Assembly (NCBI RefSeq): GCF_001677475.2
Contig: NZ_CP015229.1
Length of the DNA stretch: 64,000 nucleotides
Reading direction: 5' to 3' (one strand)
DNA from: Escherichia coli
GTDB lineage: Bacteria; Pseudomonadota; Gammaproteobacteria; Enterobacterales; Enterobacteriaceae
In this document: piece after piece, positions 45,207 through 62,855 of the stretch
How the letters are laid out: each line of letters begins with the position of its first letter
How positions within the stretch are numbered: the stretch's first letter is position 1
Made by a program: the position numbers and the translations under genes
Notes under the pieces: generated by a model
Seen by the model: the letters and a program-made list of their open reading frames with translations, nothing else
Databases searched by the model: none
Told to the model about the DNA's origin: nothing

Positions 45207-45689
45207 ATGTCAGGACCTCCGAAAACCCCGCCACGCCTGCATTTGATACGAGGCAACCCCTCAAAGCGCCCCGTTAAAGACCACAAAAAAACCGCTAAAA
45301 AGGATGAAAAAGGTCTTCCTAAAATTCCGCAGCATTTAGGGGCTCAGGGGAAGTACTGGTTCAGGCGAATGGCGGAAGAGCTGAATGCGGAAGGGATCAT
45401 TTCTCAGCTTGATGCGCGTGCACTCGAGTTGCTGGTGGAAGCCTACACCGAATATCGGCATCACTGCGAAACACTCGATGTTGAGGGGTATACCTACCGC
45501 ACGGAAACGCAGAGCGGTGATGTACTGATTAAGGCGCACCCCGCGGCGGCAATGAAAGCGGATGCCTGGAAGCGGATCCGGGCAATGCTTGCAGAGTTTG
45601 GTATGTCACCGGCAAGCCGGGCTAAAGTAAATATCGCCGGACCGGATGATGTTGATCCGCTGGCGGAGCTTTTAAAAGCGAGAGACTGA
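45207..45689 (+). CDS. terS: terminase small subunit (P27-type)
   Basis: 160 aa, upstream of and overlapping the terL start. It is homologous in its C-terminal half to the satellite TerS. Confidence 0.8.
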   Translation: MSGPPKTPPRLHLIRGNPSKRPVKDHKKTAKKDEKGLPKIPQHLGAQGKYWFRRMAEELNAEGIISQLDARALELLVEAYTEYRHHCETLDVEGYTYRTETQSGDVLIKAHPAAAMKADAWKRIRAMLAEFGMSPASRAKVNIAGPDDVDPLAELLKARD

Positions 45690-46716
45690 TGGCAAAAGTG
45701 GCTGACGGGATCCGCTACGCCGAACGTGTTGTTGCAGGAGAAATTGTTGCTGGCGAATTTGTCCGCCTGGCCTGCCAGCGTTTTCTTGATGATCTGAAGT
45801 ACGGCGAAGAGCGGGGGATTTATTTCAGTGAACCCCGTGCGCAGCACATCCTGAATTTCTACAAATTTGTGCCTCATGTAAAAGGGGCGCTGGCAGGCCA
45901 GCCCATTGAGTTGATGGACTGGCATGTATTTATTCTCATTAATATTTTTGGTTTTGTCATTCCGCTGGTCAATGAAGAGACCGGGGAAGTTGTCATGCGC
46001 AGCGATGGCAGTGGACGTCCGGTGATGGTGCGCCGGTTCCGGACGGCGTACAACGAAGTCGCTCGTAAAAACGCAAAATCAACTCTGTCATCGGGTATCG
46101 GCCTGTATATGACGGGGGCAGATGGTGAAGGCGGAGCTGAGGTGTATTCAGCCGCAACCACGCGTGACCAGGCCAGAATCGTGTTTGAAGACGCCAAAAA
46201 TATGGTCAGAAAAGCCCGGTCGACACTCGGGCGGTTGTTTGATTTCAACAAGCTGGCGATTTACCAGGAGCAGAGCGCATCAAAATTTGAACCGCTTTCT
46301 TCGGATGCAAACAACCTAGACGGTCTGAACATCCACTGCGCCATTATTGATGAGCTGCATGCACATAAAACCCGCGACGTGTGGGACGTTCTGGAAACGG
46401 CAACCGGTGCCCGTCTGCAGTCCCTGTTATTTGGTATCACCACGGCGGGCTTTAACAAGGAAGGGATTTGTTACGAGCAACGCGATTACGCCATCAAGGT
46501 ATTGCGAGGCTATAACAGCGACGTGGAGGGCGCGGTAAAAGACGACTCCTACTTTGCGATTATTTACACGCTCGATGAGGGAGATGATCCGTTTGATGAA
46601 ACGGTCTGGCAGAAAGCGAATCCGGGCCTGGGCATCTGTAAACGCTGGGATGATCTGCGTCGTCTGGCGAAAAAAGCGAAGGAGCAGGTCTCGGCGCGGG
46701 TGAATTTTTTCACGAA
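45689..46716 (+). pseudogene. terL: prophage terminase large subunit, 5' (ATPase) fragment, interrupted by satellite
   Basis: The fragment aligns with the satellite TerL up to ...RVNFFTK. The frame then reads 55 unrelated codons of island DNA. Confidence 0.88.
46710..46716. repeat. satellite attL core TCACGAA
   Basis: The same 7-mer occurs at 62119-62125, with 12/14 identity when extended (AATTTTTTCACGAA vs AATATTCTCACGAA). Confidence 0.75.
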
Positions 46717-46845
46717 GAAAGTAACATCACGCCGTAACAACAGTGCAGTCTGTCCTGATTTTTTTAGTAACCAAATGAAAGAAAAAGATTTTTTCTTGTT
46801 CGTCGTTTTTGTTTTTTCTGGATGGTTCTGGCTGTTTTCATCATT

Positions 46846-46868
46846 TGTGTATTGCACTGTGTATTGCA
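46846..46868 (+). repeat. tandem TGTGTATTGCA x2 (putative integrase arm-type sites, left end)
   Basis: Copies lie at 46846-46856 and 46858-46868. A similar pair, GTGTATTGC x2, lies at 62023-62043 with the same 12-nt register. Confidence 0.6.
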
Positions 46869-46887
46869 AAAACGGGTTATAAATCAC

Positions 46888-48111
46888 ATGGCGCTAAACA
46901 AACTGAGCGATAAAAAACTTCGTTCCCTGCTTGGACGCAGGAGTGAGAGACAGGAAACCATCGCTGATGGTAACGGGCTTTCGGTACGGGTCAGTAAATA
47001 CGGATGTGTTAGTTTTGTTTTCTTTTACAGACTGGCGGGAAGGGGAACCGCGCCCATCTGGCTGACACTTGGAAAATATCCTGATCTGAGTCTCAAATCA
47101 GCGAGAGAGATGCGCGATCAGTGTCGAACCTGGCTTGCGGAGGGCAGAGATCCACGGATTCAGATAAAAATTGAACGGGAAGCCACCTTGCAACCTGTTA
47201 CCGTTCGTGAGGCACTTGAATACTGGCTTGATAATTATGCAATGGATAAGCGTAGGGGAGCAGAACATATCAGGCAGTGCTTTGGTAAACATATTTATCC
47301 GGTGATTGGTCATGTACCACTTAGTGATTGCTCTATATCTATGTGGATTAAGTGTTTTGACAAAATAAAAAAAGTAGCACCTGTACAGGCCGGAGCTTTG
47401 TTGCGTATATCAAAACAGGCGCTTAAATTTTGTAGGGTAAGAAAATACGCGATTAGTCATGAAATTGATGATCTTGAGGTCTGTGATGTGGGAAAAAAGT
47501 CTGCGCGAAGAAGCAGGGTTTTAACAGATGATGAAATCAGAGATTTATGGCGAAGTATTAATACTGATTATGACAATCACGAATTATCATATGAAAACCG
47601 AATTATTTTACGTTTCCTGGTAGTTTTTGGTTGCCGACTGTCAGAAGTATTACTGTCGTCCTGGGGAGAGTGGGATTTTGATAAGAAATTATGGCGCGTT
47701 CCCGCTGAACATAGCAAAAATGGCAGGGAAATAATCAGACCGATTCCTGATGGCATGTTTAACTGGTTAGTTACGTTAAAAAAAATAACAGGTAACAAAG
47801 AAAATGTGATTGGGTTTGATATGCGTCAGTGTACGGCAAGCGTAACTATCGGTAAGACATGGAAAAGGATGAAACACTCGGAGAAATGGACGGCGCATGA
47901 TATGCGAAGAGTGTTTGCCACAAAACTAAGTGATCATGGTTTTGAACATAATGTGGTTGAACAGTTGCTTGGGCACACATTAGGCGGTGTTGCCGGGGTT
48001 TATAACAGAAGCCAGTATATGGACAGAAAAAAAGAAGCTATGAACTGGTGGTACGACTATCTGAATAAGCAAATTAGTGGTGACGGTAATGATTCAAATA
48101 GTTACGCGTGA
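46888..48111 (+). CDS. int: P4-type tyrosine integrase of the satellite
   Basis: 407 aa from MALNKLSDKKLRSLLG. The C-terminal catalytic region reads GCRLSEVL...HDMRRVFATKL...LGHTLGGVAGVYNR. Confidence 0.88.
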   Translation: MALNKLSDKKLRSLLGRRSERQETIADGNGLSVRVSKYGCVSFVFFYRLAGRGTAPIWLTLGKYPDLSLKSAREMRDQCRTWLAEGRDPRIQIKIEREATLQPVTVREALEYWLDNYAMDKRRGAEHIRQCFGKHIYPVIGHVPLSDCSISMWIKCFDKIKKVAPVQAGALLRISKQALKFCRVRKYAISHEIDDLEVCDVGKKSARRSRVLTDDEIRDLWRSINTDYDNHELSYENRIILRFLVVFGCRLSEVLLSSWGEWDFDKKLWRVPAEHSKNGREIIRPIPDGMFNWLVTLKKITGNKENVIGFDMRQCTASVTIGKTWKRMKHSEKWTAHDMRRVFATKLSDHGFEHNVVEQLLGHTLGGVAGVYNRSQYMDRKKEAMNWWYDYLNKQISGDGNDSNSYA

Positions 48112-48690: not shown

Positions 48691-48709
48691 GTATGTGAGG
48701 TAGAAAGTG

Positions 48710-49303
48710 ATGAATAAAAATATTGCCGTGACGGGCAAGGGTGACGCACGTCATGTGAAAAAATTCTGTGATATTCGTGATCTGGTCGTTCTGCGCTTTG
48801 ATAGTGTGAACGTTCGCGTGGTGTATCTGAACGGCGATCCGTGGTTTGTTGGCGCTGATGTGTGTGCGGCGCTGGAAATTAGCAACGTTACCGATGCTGT
48901 TTCAGTTCTGGATAACGATGAGGTAATGACCCTAGCTTTAACCGAGGGTCATTCAGGTAAGCGTGGTGGTGCCAGAAGTTGGAATGTTGTATCAGAATCA
49001 GGTTTTTACAAGTTGATCGCCAGAAGTCGCAAAGCTGTTAATCCTGGCACGTTCGCCCATCGTTTCAGTAATTGGGTATTCAGAAATGTGATACCGGGTA
49101 TCAGAAAAACGGGGGCTTATGGTATCCCGTGGGGCGCATTACAGGATTTTTCCCGCCGCAAAGAGCAATATCAGGTAAGTGCCAGCGAGAAGGGGAGGGA
49201 GCTACAGGCATGTAAGCGCAAAAAGCGTGAGCTAGAGGAAGAAGAAAAAAGGCTGATACGTGAATATCAGCCTGAGTTTTACTTTGGTGAGCGTATTCAG
49301 TAA
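48710..49303 (+). CDS. BRO-N domain (antirepressor-like) protein
   Basis: 197 aa with VRVVYLNGDPWFVGADVCAALEISN...SESGFYKLIARSRKA...FSNWVFRNVIPGIRKTGAY. Confidence 0.75.
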   Translation: MNKNIAVTGKGDARHVKKFCDIRDLVVLRFDSVNVRVVYLNGDPWFVGADVCAALEISNVTDAVSVLDNDEVMTLALTEGHSGKRGGARSWNVVSESGFYKLIARSRKAVNPGTFAHRFSNWVFRNVIPGIRKTGAYGIPWGALQDFSRRKEQYQVSASEKGRELQACKRKKRELEEEEKRLIREYQPEFYFGERIQ

Positions 49304-49461
49304 CCACACGCGGTGCTGATTATACGGTACATCGTGTTAACCGAGAAGCTACCCACCAGCAAGGCAAAATCTTCTGCTAAAAAATGACATATGGCCAGTC
49401 GTCTGGAAAGCATGAAATTTTACAAAAATGGAAAATGAAGATTTTTATTGTGCTGGTGGGT

Positions 49462-49492
49462 AAAAACAAAAAGCGCCCCGTTGCCGGAGCGC
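49462..49492 (-). terminator. minus-strand rho-independent terminator
   Basis: The minus strand reads GCGCTCCG-GCAA-CGGGGCGC followed by TTTTTGTTTTT. Confidence 0.75.
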
Positions 49493-49588
49493 CCTTGCGA
49501 ACAATTAACCTACTGCGCAAAAAAATGAATCTGTGCAGGGGGATTATATCAACCGTGTGACGAAGCGCCACAATTGCCGGATAACAGG

Positions 49589-49617
49589 CAAAGAAAAGGC
49601 CACCCGCTACGGTGGCC
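49589..49617 (-). terminator. minus-strand terminator/attenuator
   Basis: The minus strand reads GGCCACC-GTAGCG-GGTGGCC followed by TTTTCTTTG. Confidence 0.6.
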
Positions 49618-49768
49618 CTTCGACACAAGCTACACGTTATCCCCAACGCATGAGCGTCGCCAACAATGCCACATTTGCGGCTGGTGGGCAATGTGATCAG
49701 TGTGCTGGCTTGCTGGTGGGCTATTCCTGCTCTTTGGCCTTGCGTTGCTTTAGTGCTGCACGAGCTAA

Positions 49769-62125: not shown

Positions 62126-62855
62126 ACACATGAATGTGTGGGTCACTGCCGAATCGGCCTGGATGGACATGATTAAGTGGGAGAAGTGCGAATACATCGC
62201 TCCACAGCATGAGCTGAAAACGTATCCCATGTGGGTCGGCGTCGACCTTGCACATAAGATTGATATCTGTGCGGCGGCAAAACTCTGGCGAACGGATAAC
62301 GGGCATGTTCATGCCGATTTTAAATTCTGGCTTCCGGAAGGGCGACTGGAACGGTGTTCACGGCAGCAGGCAGAACTTTACCGGAAGTGGGCGGAGATGG
62401 ATAAGCTCATCCTGACGGATGGTGATGTTATCGATCATGCTCAGATAAAAAGTGACTTACTGGAATGGATTGGTGGTGAAAACCTCAGGGAACTGGGATT
62501 TGACCCGTGGAGCGCGATGCAGTTCAGCCTGGCACTGGCTGAAGAAGGGATACCGCTGGTGGAGGTTCCGCAGACGGTCCGCAATCTGTCAGAGGCCATG
62601 AAGGAAACGGAATCACTGGTCTATGCCGGACGTTTCCACCACAGCAATCACCCGGTCATGAACTGGATGATGTCTAACGTTACGGTGAAACCGGACAAAA
62701 ACGACAATATCTTCCCGAATAAATCCACGCCGGAAGCCAAAATCGACGGCCCTGTTGCGATGTTTACAGCAATGAGCCGGATGCTGGTCAATGGCGGTGA
62801 ACCGGAGCCGGATCTGTCTGAACACCTGATCAGTGTTGGTATCCGCTCGCTTTAA
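62126..62855 (+). pseudogene. terL: prophage terminase large subunit, 3' (nuclease) fragment
   Basis: HMNVWVTAESAWMDMIKWEKC... aligns with satellite TerL FNIWCQGATPWMGNGAWAEC. The fragment is in frame with the 5' fragment when joined at the core. Confidence 0.88.

What the first reader, a model, noticed from the sequence alone, without database searches (positions are those of the whole stretch)
49462..49768. About 300-nt ORF-free minus-strand tail with two terminators, a candidate satellite sRNA or long 3' UTR
**Seen in sequence.**
- Downstream of the RHH gene and the 47-aa peptide gene, the minus strand has no credible ORF.
- It carries two intrinsic terminators. One is GGCCACC-GTAGCG-GGTGGCC plus TTTTCTTTG at 49589-49617. 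The other is GCGCTCCG-GCAA-CGGGGCGC plus T5GT5 at 49462-49492.
- The roughly 100-nt segment between them could be released as a discrete RNA.
- The track ORFs here (131 aa on the minus strand, 323 aa on the plus strand) read straight through these hairpins and look non-proteinaceous.

**Inference.** This may be a regulatory RNA of the satellite immunity region. P4-like elements use processed leader or terminator RNAs for immunity. Alternatively it is a readthrough-controlled attenuator.
Basis: inference. Interest (0 to 1): 0.5.

Follow-up and report, generated by a model that had tools for sequence, protein, structure and literature searches.

The report
Two small-RNA genes in a satellite
The ORF-free "tail" behind a regulator gene of an E. 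coli phage satellite is most likely two short non-coding RNA genes in tandem, each with its own promoter and terminator; they occur in about one in six complete E. coli genomes, including the model island of strain CFT073, and are unannotated there, but no expression data were available.

Summary

The reading changes. The tail is a mosaic of two self-contained units. Each has a sigma-70-type promoter, a 65-75-nt body and an intrinsic terminator.
- **Unit 1** (about 49657-49590): an almost invariant promoter box, TTGCCC-N17-CATTGT; a body that differs completely between at least six classes; and terminator T1, which stays paired in all 17 variants.
- **Unit 2** (about 49536-49463): the window's only perfect extended -10 (TGATATAAT); a variable 5' end; an invariant unpaired core, GCAGYAGGYUAAUUGUUC; and terminator T2.

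The two units occur together or separately, always between ylcI and the convergent alpA/BRO-N genes of E. coli PICI-type satellites. EcCICFT073 carries both.

They are not in Rfam and not protein-coding. They are also not the P4/P1-type immunity RNA; that C4 RNA lies at 50652-50739 on the other strand.

I found no expression data and no target. The conserved promoter box overlaps a Chi site, so DNA-level selection is a rival explanation.

Verdict: probable new satellite-encoded sRNA genes, a new member of a known kind.

The parts
49721..49747 (-). Relic 3' end of a ylcI-type gene (CAA CGC AAG GCC AAA GAG CAG GAA TAG = QRKAKEQE*). It is not part of any RNA gene.
   Evidence: Read. Full-length YlcI in L004 ends ...RRKAKEQE*, and in L128 that stop directly abuts the same downstream sequence.
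49663..49691 (-). Unit 1 promoter box: -35 TTGCCC (49691-49686), a 17-nt spacer with TG at -15/-14, and -10 CATTGT (49668-49663). It overlaps a Chi site on the + strand (49680-49687).
   Evidence: Nearly invariant in about 130 satellite loci while the sequence downstream is replaced. Variants TTGCCA-N17-CATAGT (no Chi) and TTGCCC-N17-TATCAT keep the same geometry. The pattern count is 2 against 0.35 expected. The generic promoter scan does not call it.
49590..49657 (-). Predicted sRNA-1, about 68 nt. The 5' end is inferred from the -10 position. It has an internal hairpin and then terminator T1.
   Evidence: Folds at -29.5 kcal/mol, z = -3.3. The body falls into at least six unrelated sequence classes between a conserved promoter and terminator.
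49589..49617 (-). Terminator T1 (GGCCACC-GTAGCG-GGTGGCC plus UUUUCUUUG). It ends both sRNA-1 and the ylcI operon.
   Evidence: 17 variants, 100% paired, GC/CG compensatory switch, 0 of 500 shuffles. In L139 T1 persists without the unit 1 promoter.
49543..49551 (-). Unit 2 promoter: extended -10 TGATATAAT.
   Evidence: The only TGNTATAAT in the 64-kb window (1.44 expected, so the count alone is not significant). It is kept in every class-A homologue but one (TATAAC in L016). Classes B (TTCACT-N17-TATAAT) and C (TTGCCC-N17-TATCAT) place a different promoter at the same distance from the core.
49463..49536 (-). Predicted sRNA-2, about 74 nt: variable 5' end (GCACAGAUUCAUUUUUUU), invariant unpaired core GCAGUAGGUUAAUUGUUC (49516-49499), then terminator T2.
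   Evidence: Folds at -25.6 kcal/mol, z = -3.8, 0 of 200 shuffles; the antisense strand gives z = -1.4. The covariance model hits once in the window, at 99.5 bits.
49462..49492 (-). Terminator T2 (GCGCUCCG-GCAA-CGGGGCGC plus U5GU5).
49769..50101 (-). Upstream operon whose transcript runs into the tail: ylcI/ynfO-family gene (50101-49916) and a 47-aa hydrophobic ORF (49912-49769).
   Evidence: NCBIfam YlcI_YnfO_N, E = 3.8e-18. A promoter-like site lies at 50159-50132. No terminator lies between this operon and T1.
49353..49719 (.). Four Chi octamers: GCTGGTGG on + at 49452, 49680 and 49712, and on - at 49353-49360. They bracket the tail and face inward.

Best explanation
The tail is a mosaic of two independent small non-coding RNA genes in tandem on the minus strand. 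They lie downstream of the ylcI operon of a capsid-forming PICI-type satellite and converge on its alpA/BRO-N genes.

**Unit 1.**
- Transcription starts about 7 nt after CATTGT, near 49657, and stops at T1, giving an RNA of about 68 nt.
- T1 also terminates the ylcI operon.

**Unit 2.**
- Transcription starts about 7 nt after TGATATAAT, near 49536, and stops at T2, giving an RNA of about 74 nt.
- The 5' end varies between islands.
- An 18-nt core just upstream of the terminator is invariant and predicted to be unpaired.

**What is shown.**
- The anatomy of both units.
- Strand-specific conservation of both terminator hairpins.
- Absence of a coding signal.
- The modular distribution of the two units across islands.

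**What is inferred.**
- That the promoters fire.
- That the RNAs accumulate.
- That they act in trans by base pairing, with Hfq or ProQ, on host or helper-phage mRNAs.
For: **Terminators.**
- T1 and T2 are conserved as RNA hairpins on this strand only.
- Conservation is through compensatory and G-U changes.

**Promoters.**
- Each terminator is preceded at 65-75 nt by a promoter.
- That promoter is conserved or functionally replaced.
- Three different promoters drive the same unit 2 core (classes A, B and C).
- Three versions of the unit 1 box keep the -35/17/-10 geometry, one of them without Chi.

**Modularity.**
- Of the IMG/VR loci, 83 hold both units, 51 hold only the unit 1 box and 44 hold only the unit 2 core.
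- In the unit-1-only loci, T1 usually abuts the stop codon of the convergent gene.

**Conservation pattern.**
- The promoter, core and terminator are fixed, while the body and 5' end vary.
- This is the pattern expected of an RNA gene.

**Folding.**
- The predicted RNAs fold better than shuffles: z = -3.8 and -3.3.
- The conserved core of sRNA-2 is left unpaired next to the terminator.

**Not coding.**

**Position and spread.**
- The tail was found in 930 of 5426 complete E. coli genomes.
- In the loci whose annotation was inspected it occupies the same slot, in islands at different attachment sites. CFT073 and EAEC 042 are among them.
Against: - No expression data of any kind were available.
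- The generic sigma-70 scan calls neither promoter.
- The unit 1 -10 (CATTGT) matches the consensus at only 3 of 6 positions.
- The most conserved stretch of unit 1 contains a Chi site, so DNA-level selection or recombination could explain its conservation.
- One TGNTATAAT in 64 kb is what chance predicts. Its weight comes only from its position and its conservation.
- All homologues are from Escherichia, so covariation rests on few independent events.
- No target site recurs within the islands.
- T1's U tract is interrupted.
Confidence: 0.6

Rival explanations
1. The tail is a passive 3' UTR with tandem terminators. It only ends the ylcI operon and insulates it from the convergent alpA/BRO-N operon. 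The promoter-like sequences are not used, and any small RNAs are by-products.
For: - No terminator separates ylcI/orf47 from T1.
- In L139 T1 is kept although the unit 1 promoter box is deleted.
- In unit-1-only islands T1 is the sole terminator between convergent genes.
- The promoter scan calls nothing here.
Against: - It does not explain why a second terminator always comes with a TATAAT at a fixed distance. Three unrelated promoter contexts share this arrangement.
- It does not explain why an 18-nt unpaired core is invariant.
- It does not explain why the 29-nt box upstream of T1 is far more conserved than the transcript body.
Confidence: 0.2
2. The conserved blocks are DNA-level signals: a cluster of Chi sites forming a RecBCD-controlled recombination or protection spot, possibly with a protein-binding site. 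Transcription is incidental.
For: - The repeated motif CCCACCAGC is the complement of Chi.
- Four copies lie within 360 bp and face inward.
- The breakpoints between alternative modules coincide with them.
- These satellites carry one Chi per 1.1 kb.
Against: - Conservation extends about 20 nt beyond the octamer and matches promoter geometry.
- A variant without Chi keeps that geometry (L128/L138).
- Apart from the Chi in the promoter box, Chi density in the tail (about 1 per 720 bp) is only slightly above the satellite average.
- Chi cannot explain strand-specific G-U-tolerant hairpins or the unit 2 core, which has no Chi.
- This explanation can coexist with the RNA genes.
Confidence: 0.12
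3. The tail is a P4/P1-type immunity RNA or a readthrough-controlled attenuator of the satellite.
For: The island does have a P1 immI/P4-like immunity module, and the tail lies next to the putative regulator gene ylcI.
Against: - The C4-family RNA is at 50652-50739 on the + strand.
- The tail gives no Rfam hit better than E = 0.5.
- There is no complementarity to the C4 RNA.
- No conserved alternative pairing competes with T1 or T2.
- There is no gene downstream on the minus strand to attenuate, because the next genes converge.
Confidence: 0.03
4. The region encodes a protein: the 131-aa minus ORF, the 323-aa plus ORF or a micro-ORF.
For: Open frames exist in this window. PGAP marks pseudogene fragments over the region in CFT073 and 042.
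Against: - No Pfam hit.
- No third-position bias, and frame-breaking indels in 17 of 18 homologues.
- The bodies are replaced wholesale between islands.
- The only AUG-led frames inside the RNAs are 5-6 codons long and lack a Shine-Dalgarno sequence.
Confidence: 0.02

Closest known systems
Prophage- and island-encoded Hfq-type sRNAs of pathogenic E. coli (PasA-D, Esr41, AgvB/AsxR, DicF, IpeX)
   Same: - Short intergenic genes on a mobile element.
- Own promoter and an intrinsic terminator with a U tail.
- A conserved unpaired stretch just upstream of the terminator, as proposed for the PasB seed (preprint 10.64898/2026.05.13.724894).
- Patchy, strain-level distribution and sequence variants within Escherichia.
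   Different: - No Rfam family matches.
- The Pas genes lie in lambdoid prophages. PasB lies in a structural-gene operon and is found in phage genomes (same preprint), whereas this tail has no match in 50,697 phage records.
- The host element is a PICI-type satellite.
- Expression and Hfq binding are untested.
C4 antisense RNA of P1/P7 and CI RNA of satellite P4 (Rfam RF01695)
   Same: A small regulatory RNA of a phage or satellite control region. The same island carries a true member 0.9 kb away.
   Different: - That RNA is processed from the leader of the lytic operon and pairs with sites in the same transcript (established knowledge).
- The tail RNAs are on the opposite strand.
- They are terminator-defined and apparently self-promoted.
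- They fail the covariance model and are not complementary to the leader or to C4.
The sRNA of the Vibrio cholerae satellite PLE that regulates both PLE and its helper phage ICP1 (preprint 10.1101/2022.04.08.487710, abstract)
   Same: An sRNA encoded by a phage satellite. That abstract states that sRNAs had not previously been shown to play a role in satellite-phage conflict.
   Different: - Unrelated host, satellite family and sequence.
- That RNA has experimental interactome support, and this one has none.
sRNAs embedded in mRNA 3' regions with their own promoter and a shared terminator (MicL and DapZ type; from general knowledge)
   Same: Unit 1 sits inside the 3' region of the ylcI operon and shares its terminator T1.
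   Different: - The promoter lies in non-coding DNA (a relic gene end), not inside a live coding sequence.
- The body is hypervariable rather than conserved.

Membership tests
Intrinsic (Rho-independent) terminator | G+C-rich stem-loop immediately followed by a U tract on the transcribed strand | tested here: met
   T2 is called by the scan. T1 and T2 were read directly. Both stay paired in all variants. T1's U tract is interrupted (UUUUCUUUG).
Independent sRNA gene | Own promoter at sRNA distance upstream of the terminator | tested here: inconclusive
   Unit 2 has a perfect extended -10, conserved or replaced by other promoters. The unit 1 geometry is conserved. The generic scan calls neither, and no TSS data exist.
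Independent sRNA gene | A stable transcript of defined size | not testable with these tools
   No transcriptome data could be queried. A CFT073 reannotation used in preprint 10.64898/2026.09.28.754932 lists 46 sRNAs. That preprint does not mention PICIs, and I did not see the list.
Independent sRNA gene | Non-coding | tested here: met
Hfq-dependent base-pairing sRNA | Conserved single-stranded seed plus terminator hairpin with 3' U tail | tested here: met
   The sRNA-2 core at 49516-49499 is invariant apart from Y/W positions and is unpaired in the MFE fold. The tail is U5GU5. For sRNA-1 no conserved seed exists.
Hfq-dependent base-pairing sRNA | Identified mRNA targets with complementary sites | tested here: inconclusive
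   No recurrent target was found inside the islands. The replicase start region pairs 13 of 14 with one sRNA-2 subclass only. The host genome could not be scanned.
Hfq-dependent base-pairing sRNA | Binding to and stabilisation by Hfq | not testable with these tools
   Needs co-immunoprecipitation, CLIP or RIL-seq.
C4 antisense RNA / P4 CI RNA (RF01695) | Match to the family covariance model at or above the gathering score | tested here: not met
   There is no hit in 49200-50300 even at E <= 10. The family hit is at 50652-50739 on the + strand, 72.3 bits.
C4 antisense RNA / P4 CI RNA (RF01695) | Complementarity to target sites in the leader of the operon it controls | tested here: not met
   The tail RNAs share at most 6 nt of complementarity with the C4 RNA.
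Pas sRNAs (PasB in particular) | Location in lambdoid prophage or phage genomes, inside or beside structural or lysis genes | tested here: not met
   There is no match in the phage collection. The context is always the ylcI to alpA/BRO-N slot of a satellite. The Pas sequences themselves were not available for direct comparison.
Chi site | Exact octamer 5'-GCTGGTGG-3' | tested here: met
   Four copies lie at 49353 (-), 49452, 49680 and 49712 (+). Activity was not tested.
Protein-coding gene | Conserved reading frame, codon-position bias and homologous proteins | tested here: not met

The most novel reading that the evidence does not exclude
Unit 1 is an RNA specificity cassette. An almost invariant promoter and a shape-conserved terminator frame a 30-45-nt body that has been swapped among at least six unrelated alleles.

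- Each allele would target a different helper-phage or rival-satellite transcript. That would make it an RNA-based interference or immunity determinant of PICIs.
- The inward-facing Chi sites at the module borders would drive cassette exchange between islands.
- sRNA-2 would add a constant arm (the invariant core) aimed at a host or conserved helper target.
Probability: 0.12. Interest if true: 0.8.

Novelty: new member of a known kind. Interest (0 to 1): 0.5.

Why it matters
PICI-type satellites of E. coli, with EcCICFT073 as the model, are described in the papers I read in terms of proteins such as AlpA, integrase, primase and packaging factors. Those papers mention no RNA regulator.

- **If the two units are expressed**, the archetypal Gram-negative PICI carries two unannotated sRNA genes next to its putative regulator gene.
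- **Spread.** The whole tail is in about 17% of complete E. coli genomes, the unit 1 box in 14% and unit 2 in 8%.
- **What this would add.** It would put an RNA layer on satellite-helper-host regulation, with precise coordinates for deletion and northern experiments in a tractable strain.
- **Direct experiment.** The conserved-frame, variable-body architecture of unit 1 allows direct allele-swap experiments on specificity.
- **If they are not expressed**, the region is still a clear example of tandem terminators and Chi-bounded mosaicism between convergent satellite operons.

Tried and rejected
- **Rfam.** The whole window at gathering scores and the tail at E <= 10 gave only chance-level terminator look-alikes.
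- **Phage collection.** BLAST of the tail against the phage collection found nothing.
- **Literature string search.** Six diagnostic sequence strings returned no paper. Searches combining PICI or CFT073 with sRNA terms found no description of these RNAs.
- **Pas sRNAs.** Considered and rejected on context.
- **CFT073 temperature study.** Its c1498-c1501 genes turned out to be capsid-region genes, not the tail.
- **Species-representative genomes.** Scanning for the unit 2 core found one plausible hit, Escherichia ruysiae, among 23 matches. The rest looked like chance, so there was no deep phylogeny for covariation.
- **Target searches.**
  - RNAduplex over the island was uninformative because it produced long, gappy duplexes.
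  - Exact-seed searches in the window and per island found no recurrent site for sRNA-1, for the sRNA-2 5' end or for its core.
  - The replicase start-codon site looked promising in the window. It ranks high only for the CAGAUUC subclass and very low for the common CUGAUCC subclass, with no compensating change in the target.
- **Complementarity to the C4 RNA.** None.
- **5' stem-loop of sRNA-2.** Its lower stem changes without compensation, so I treat that region as unpaired.
- **RNAalifold on T2.** A one-base register shift in the alternative hairpin type confounded the alignment. I therefore counted type I variants separately and folded every variant individually.

Full report
**Context**

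- Integrase (46822-48111), two AlpA-family genes and a BRO-N gene (48707-49303) lie on the plus strand.
- A minus-strand operon converges on them. It holds a YlcI/YnfO-family gene (50101-49916; NCBIfam E = 3.8e-18) and a 47-aa ORF (49912-49769), followed by the tail.
- Beyond a divergent promoter pair the plus strand carries:
  - a C4-family antisense RNA (50652-50739, 72 bits);
  - an Icd-like ORF, DUF4222, an AAA_25/RepA helicase and SSB;
  - capsid, prohead protease, portal, HNH, small terminase and large terminase genes.
- This is the gene set of a capsid-forming PICI-type satellite.
- The same ylcI, tail, alpA/BRO-N arrangement occurs in islands at different chromosomal sites: tRNA-Pro, roxA, abgR and ilvL among them. 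CFT073's island next to roxA (the published EcCICFT073) and an island in EAEC 042 carry it too.

**Observation**

- The scan calls T2. I think it misses T1 because its greedy A-U/G-U stem extension eats part of the interrupted U tract.
- The large ORFs that cross the region have no Pfam match.
- Among 18 distinct full-length homologues, 17 differ from the window by indels.
- The 85 variable sites are spread 25/28/32 over the three codon positions of the 131-aa frame.
- The region is therefore non-coding. Its first 47 nt are a leftover copy of a ylcI 3' end (QRKAKEQE*).

**Distribution**

| Query | Complete E. coli genomes with a match (of 5426) |
|---|---|
| Whole tail | 930 |
| Unit 1 segment | 755 (mostly only its first 47 nt, the promoter box) |
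| Unit 2 segment | 439 |

- The tail has no match in 50,697 phage records.
Together they gave about 170 satellite-sized loci.
- Of these, 83 hold both anchors, 51 only the unit 1 box and 44 only the unit 2 core. A few of the last group are chance matches in capsid genes.
- Among one genome per species, the unit 2 core pattern gave one plausible match, Escherichia ruysiae. The other 22 matches came from unrelated phyla and look like chance.

**Unit 2**

- Aligned homologues share, from 5' to 3': a -10 hexamer, 26-37 variable nucleotides, the core GCAGYAGGYTAWTYGTTC, and T2 with its U tract.
- Three unrelated upstream contexts supply the promoter:

| Class | Promoter |
|---|---|
| A (window type) | TGATATAAT, a perfect extended -10, at 49551-49543 |
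| B | TTCACT-N17-TATAAT |
| C | TTGCCC-N17-TATCAT |

- The window contains only this one TGNTATAAT. Chance expects about 1.4, so the argument rests on its position and conservation, not its count.
- T2 stays fully paired in every variant.
  - Single changes are all G-U-compatible.
  - One pair changes CG to AU on both sides.
  - An alternative hairpin type replaces the stem altogether.
- On the opposite strand the same variants are 3-10 kcal/mol weaker. Selection therefore acts on the minus-strand RNA.
- The predicted 74-nt RNA (49536-49463) folds at -25.6 kcal/mol (z = -3.8) and leaves the core unpaired.
- A covariance model built from 15 variants finds one copy in the window, at 99.5 bits.

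**Unit 1**

- A 29-nt box, TTGCCCACCAGCCGCAAATGTGGCATTGT (49691-49663), is almost invariant. It reads as -35 TTGCCC, a 17-nt spacer with TG at -15/-14, and -10 CATTGT.
- It is followed by a body that falls into at least six unrelated classes of 27-45 nt.
- Then comes a hairpin whose sequence changes but whose pairing does not.
- Across 17 variants, 119 of 119 cells are paired, with a GC/CG switch (9 versus 7). None of 500 shuffles reaches the observed pairing or covariation score.
- Two variant boxes keep the promoter geometry:
  - TTGCCA-N17-CATAGT, which has lost the Chi octamer;
  - TTGCCC-N17-TATCAT, which directly drives a unit 2-type RNA in class C islands.
- In many islands unit 1 stands alone, and T1 abuts the stop codon of the convergent gene.
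- In L139 the box is deleted and T1 remains. T1 therefore also serves as the operon terminator.
- The predicted 68-nt RNA folds at -29.5 kcal/mol (z = -3.3).

**Chi**

- The repeated motif CCCACCAGC (9 copies in the window against 0.4 expected) is the complement of Chi, GCTGGTGG.
- Four copies lie within 360 bp: three on the plus strand and one on the minus strand. They face inward.
- One copy overlaps the unit 1 -35 element.
- The points where alternative modules begin and end coincide with these sites.
- The satellites as a whole carry one Chi per 1.1 kb. This is about four times the E. coli chromosomal average as I recall it.
- Chi is a real rival for the conservation of the box, and it is a plausible driver of the mosaicism.
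- It does not explain the promoter geometry kept without Chi, the strand-specific hairpins or the unit 2 core.

**Function**

- Neither RNA is complementary to the C4 RNA.
- No target recurs inside the islands for the sRNA-1 bodies, the sRNA-2 5' ends or the sRNA-2 core.
- In the window, the 5' end of sRNA-2 (CAGAUUCAUUUUUU, 49533-49520) pairs 13 of 14 with the start region of the replicase gene (AAAAAAUGAAACUG, 51922-51935).
- That site ranks 1-15 of 150-290 start regions for islands with the same sRNA subclass.
- It ranks near the bottom for the common CUGAUCC subclass, and the target does not change. I keep it only as a lead.
- The likeliest mechanism, by analogy with other terminator-defined sRNAs of mobile elements, is trans base pairing with host or helper mRNAs through the unpaired core (sRNA-2) and the variable body (sRNA-1). 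This step is inference.

**Comparison with known systems**

- Rfam 15 has no matching family.
- The Pas sRNAs of EPEC lie in lambdoid prophages. PasB sits in a structural operon and occurs in phage genomes (preprint 10.64898/2026.05.13.724894). That does not fit this tail.
- The text-searchable literature holds none of six diagnostic sequence strings and no paper linking EcCICFT073 with sRNAs.
- A recent CFT073 study works with 46 annotated sRNAs and does not mention PICIs.
- The closest functional precedent for a satellite-encoded trans-acting sRNA is in the Vibrio PLE (preprint 10.1101/2022.04.08.487710).
- I therefore file the finding as a probable new member of a known kind, mobile-element sRNA genes, with an unusual cassette-like architecture. 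Everything beyond anatomy and comparative conservation awaits expression data.

Noticed in passing
window 45689-46882 and 62130-62855; repeats at 46857 and 62033: The 15-kb satellite appears to be inserted inside the large-terminase gene of another element. The upstream fragment carries the TerL ATPase domain plus nuclease-profile positions 2-64, and the downstream fragment carries positions 64-283. An 11-nt direct repeat, CTGTGTATTGC, flanks the island. E. coli AH19B041 and EAEC 042 show the same integrase-next-to-truncated-terL arrangement.
   Followed up: partly
window 49353-49719, and IMG/VR loci L008-L178: There is a cluster of four inward-facing Chi octamers in 360 bp, and the breakpoints of the tail modules coincide with them. 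These satellites carry one Chi per about 1.1 kb overall.
   Followed up: partly
window 50163-50964 (+): This is a P1 immI/P4-like immunity unit: a promoter-like site (50163-50192), a leader, a C4-family antisense RNA (50652-50739, 72 bits), and an Icd-like reading frame ending at 50964. The C4 RNA has 8-10-nt complementary sites in its own leader.
   Followed up: partly
window 50122-50132, 50168-50178, 50193-50204: There are three copies of GTGTAAGACA(C), two of them as an inverted pair. They lie between and over the divergent ylcI and lytic-operon promoters and look like operators, possibly for YlcI.
   Followed up: no
window 49769-49912 (-): The 47-aa ORF has a hydrophobic N-terminal half. 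It sits between the true ylcI stop and a relic ylcI 3' end, so it looks like an insertion. Only one of 5426 E. coli genomes shares this arrangement at >=80% coverage. Other islands carry an unrelated 57-66-aa basic ORF (MTDKELTK...) in this position.
   Followed up: partly
window 49250-49273: A hairpin inside the last 50 nt of the BRO-N gene scores as a terminator on both strands. On the minus strand it is followed by T6CTTCT and would catch readthrough past T2.
   Followed up: no
window 49350-49374 and 49437-49462: This is an imperfect 25-nt inverted repeat with a 12-nt perfect core, TACCCACCAGCA / TGCTGGTGGGTA, and each arm holds a Chi site. It encloses about 62 nt between T2 and the BRO-N gene. 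The segment travels with the BRO-N module in other islands.
   Followed up: no
window 49520-49533 (-) versus 51922-51935 (+): The 5' end of predicted sRNA-2 pairs 13 of 14 with the ribosome-binding and start-codon region of the RepA-type replicase gene. This holds only for one sRNA-2 subclass across islands.
   Followed up: yes
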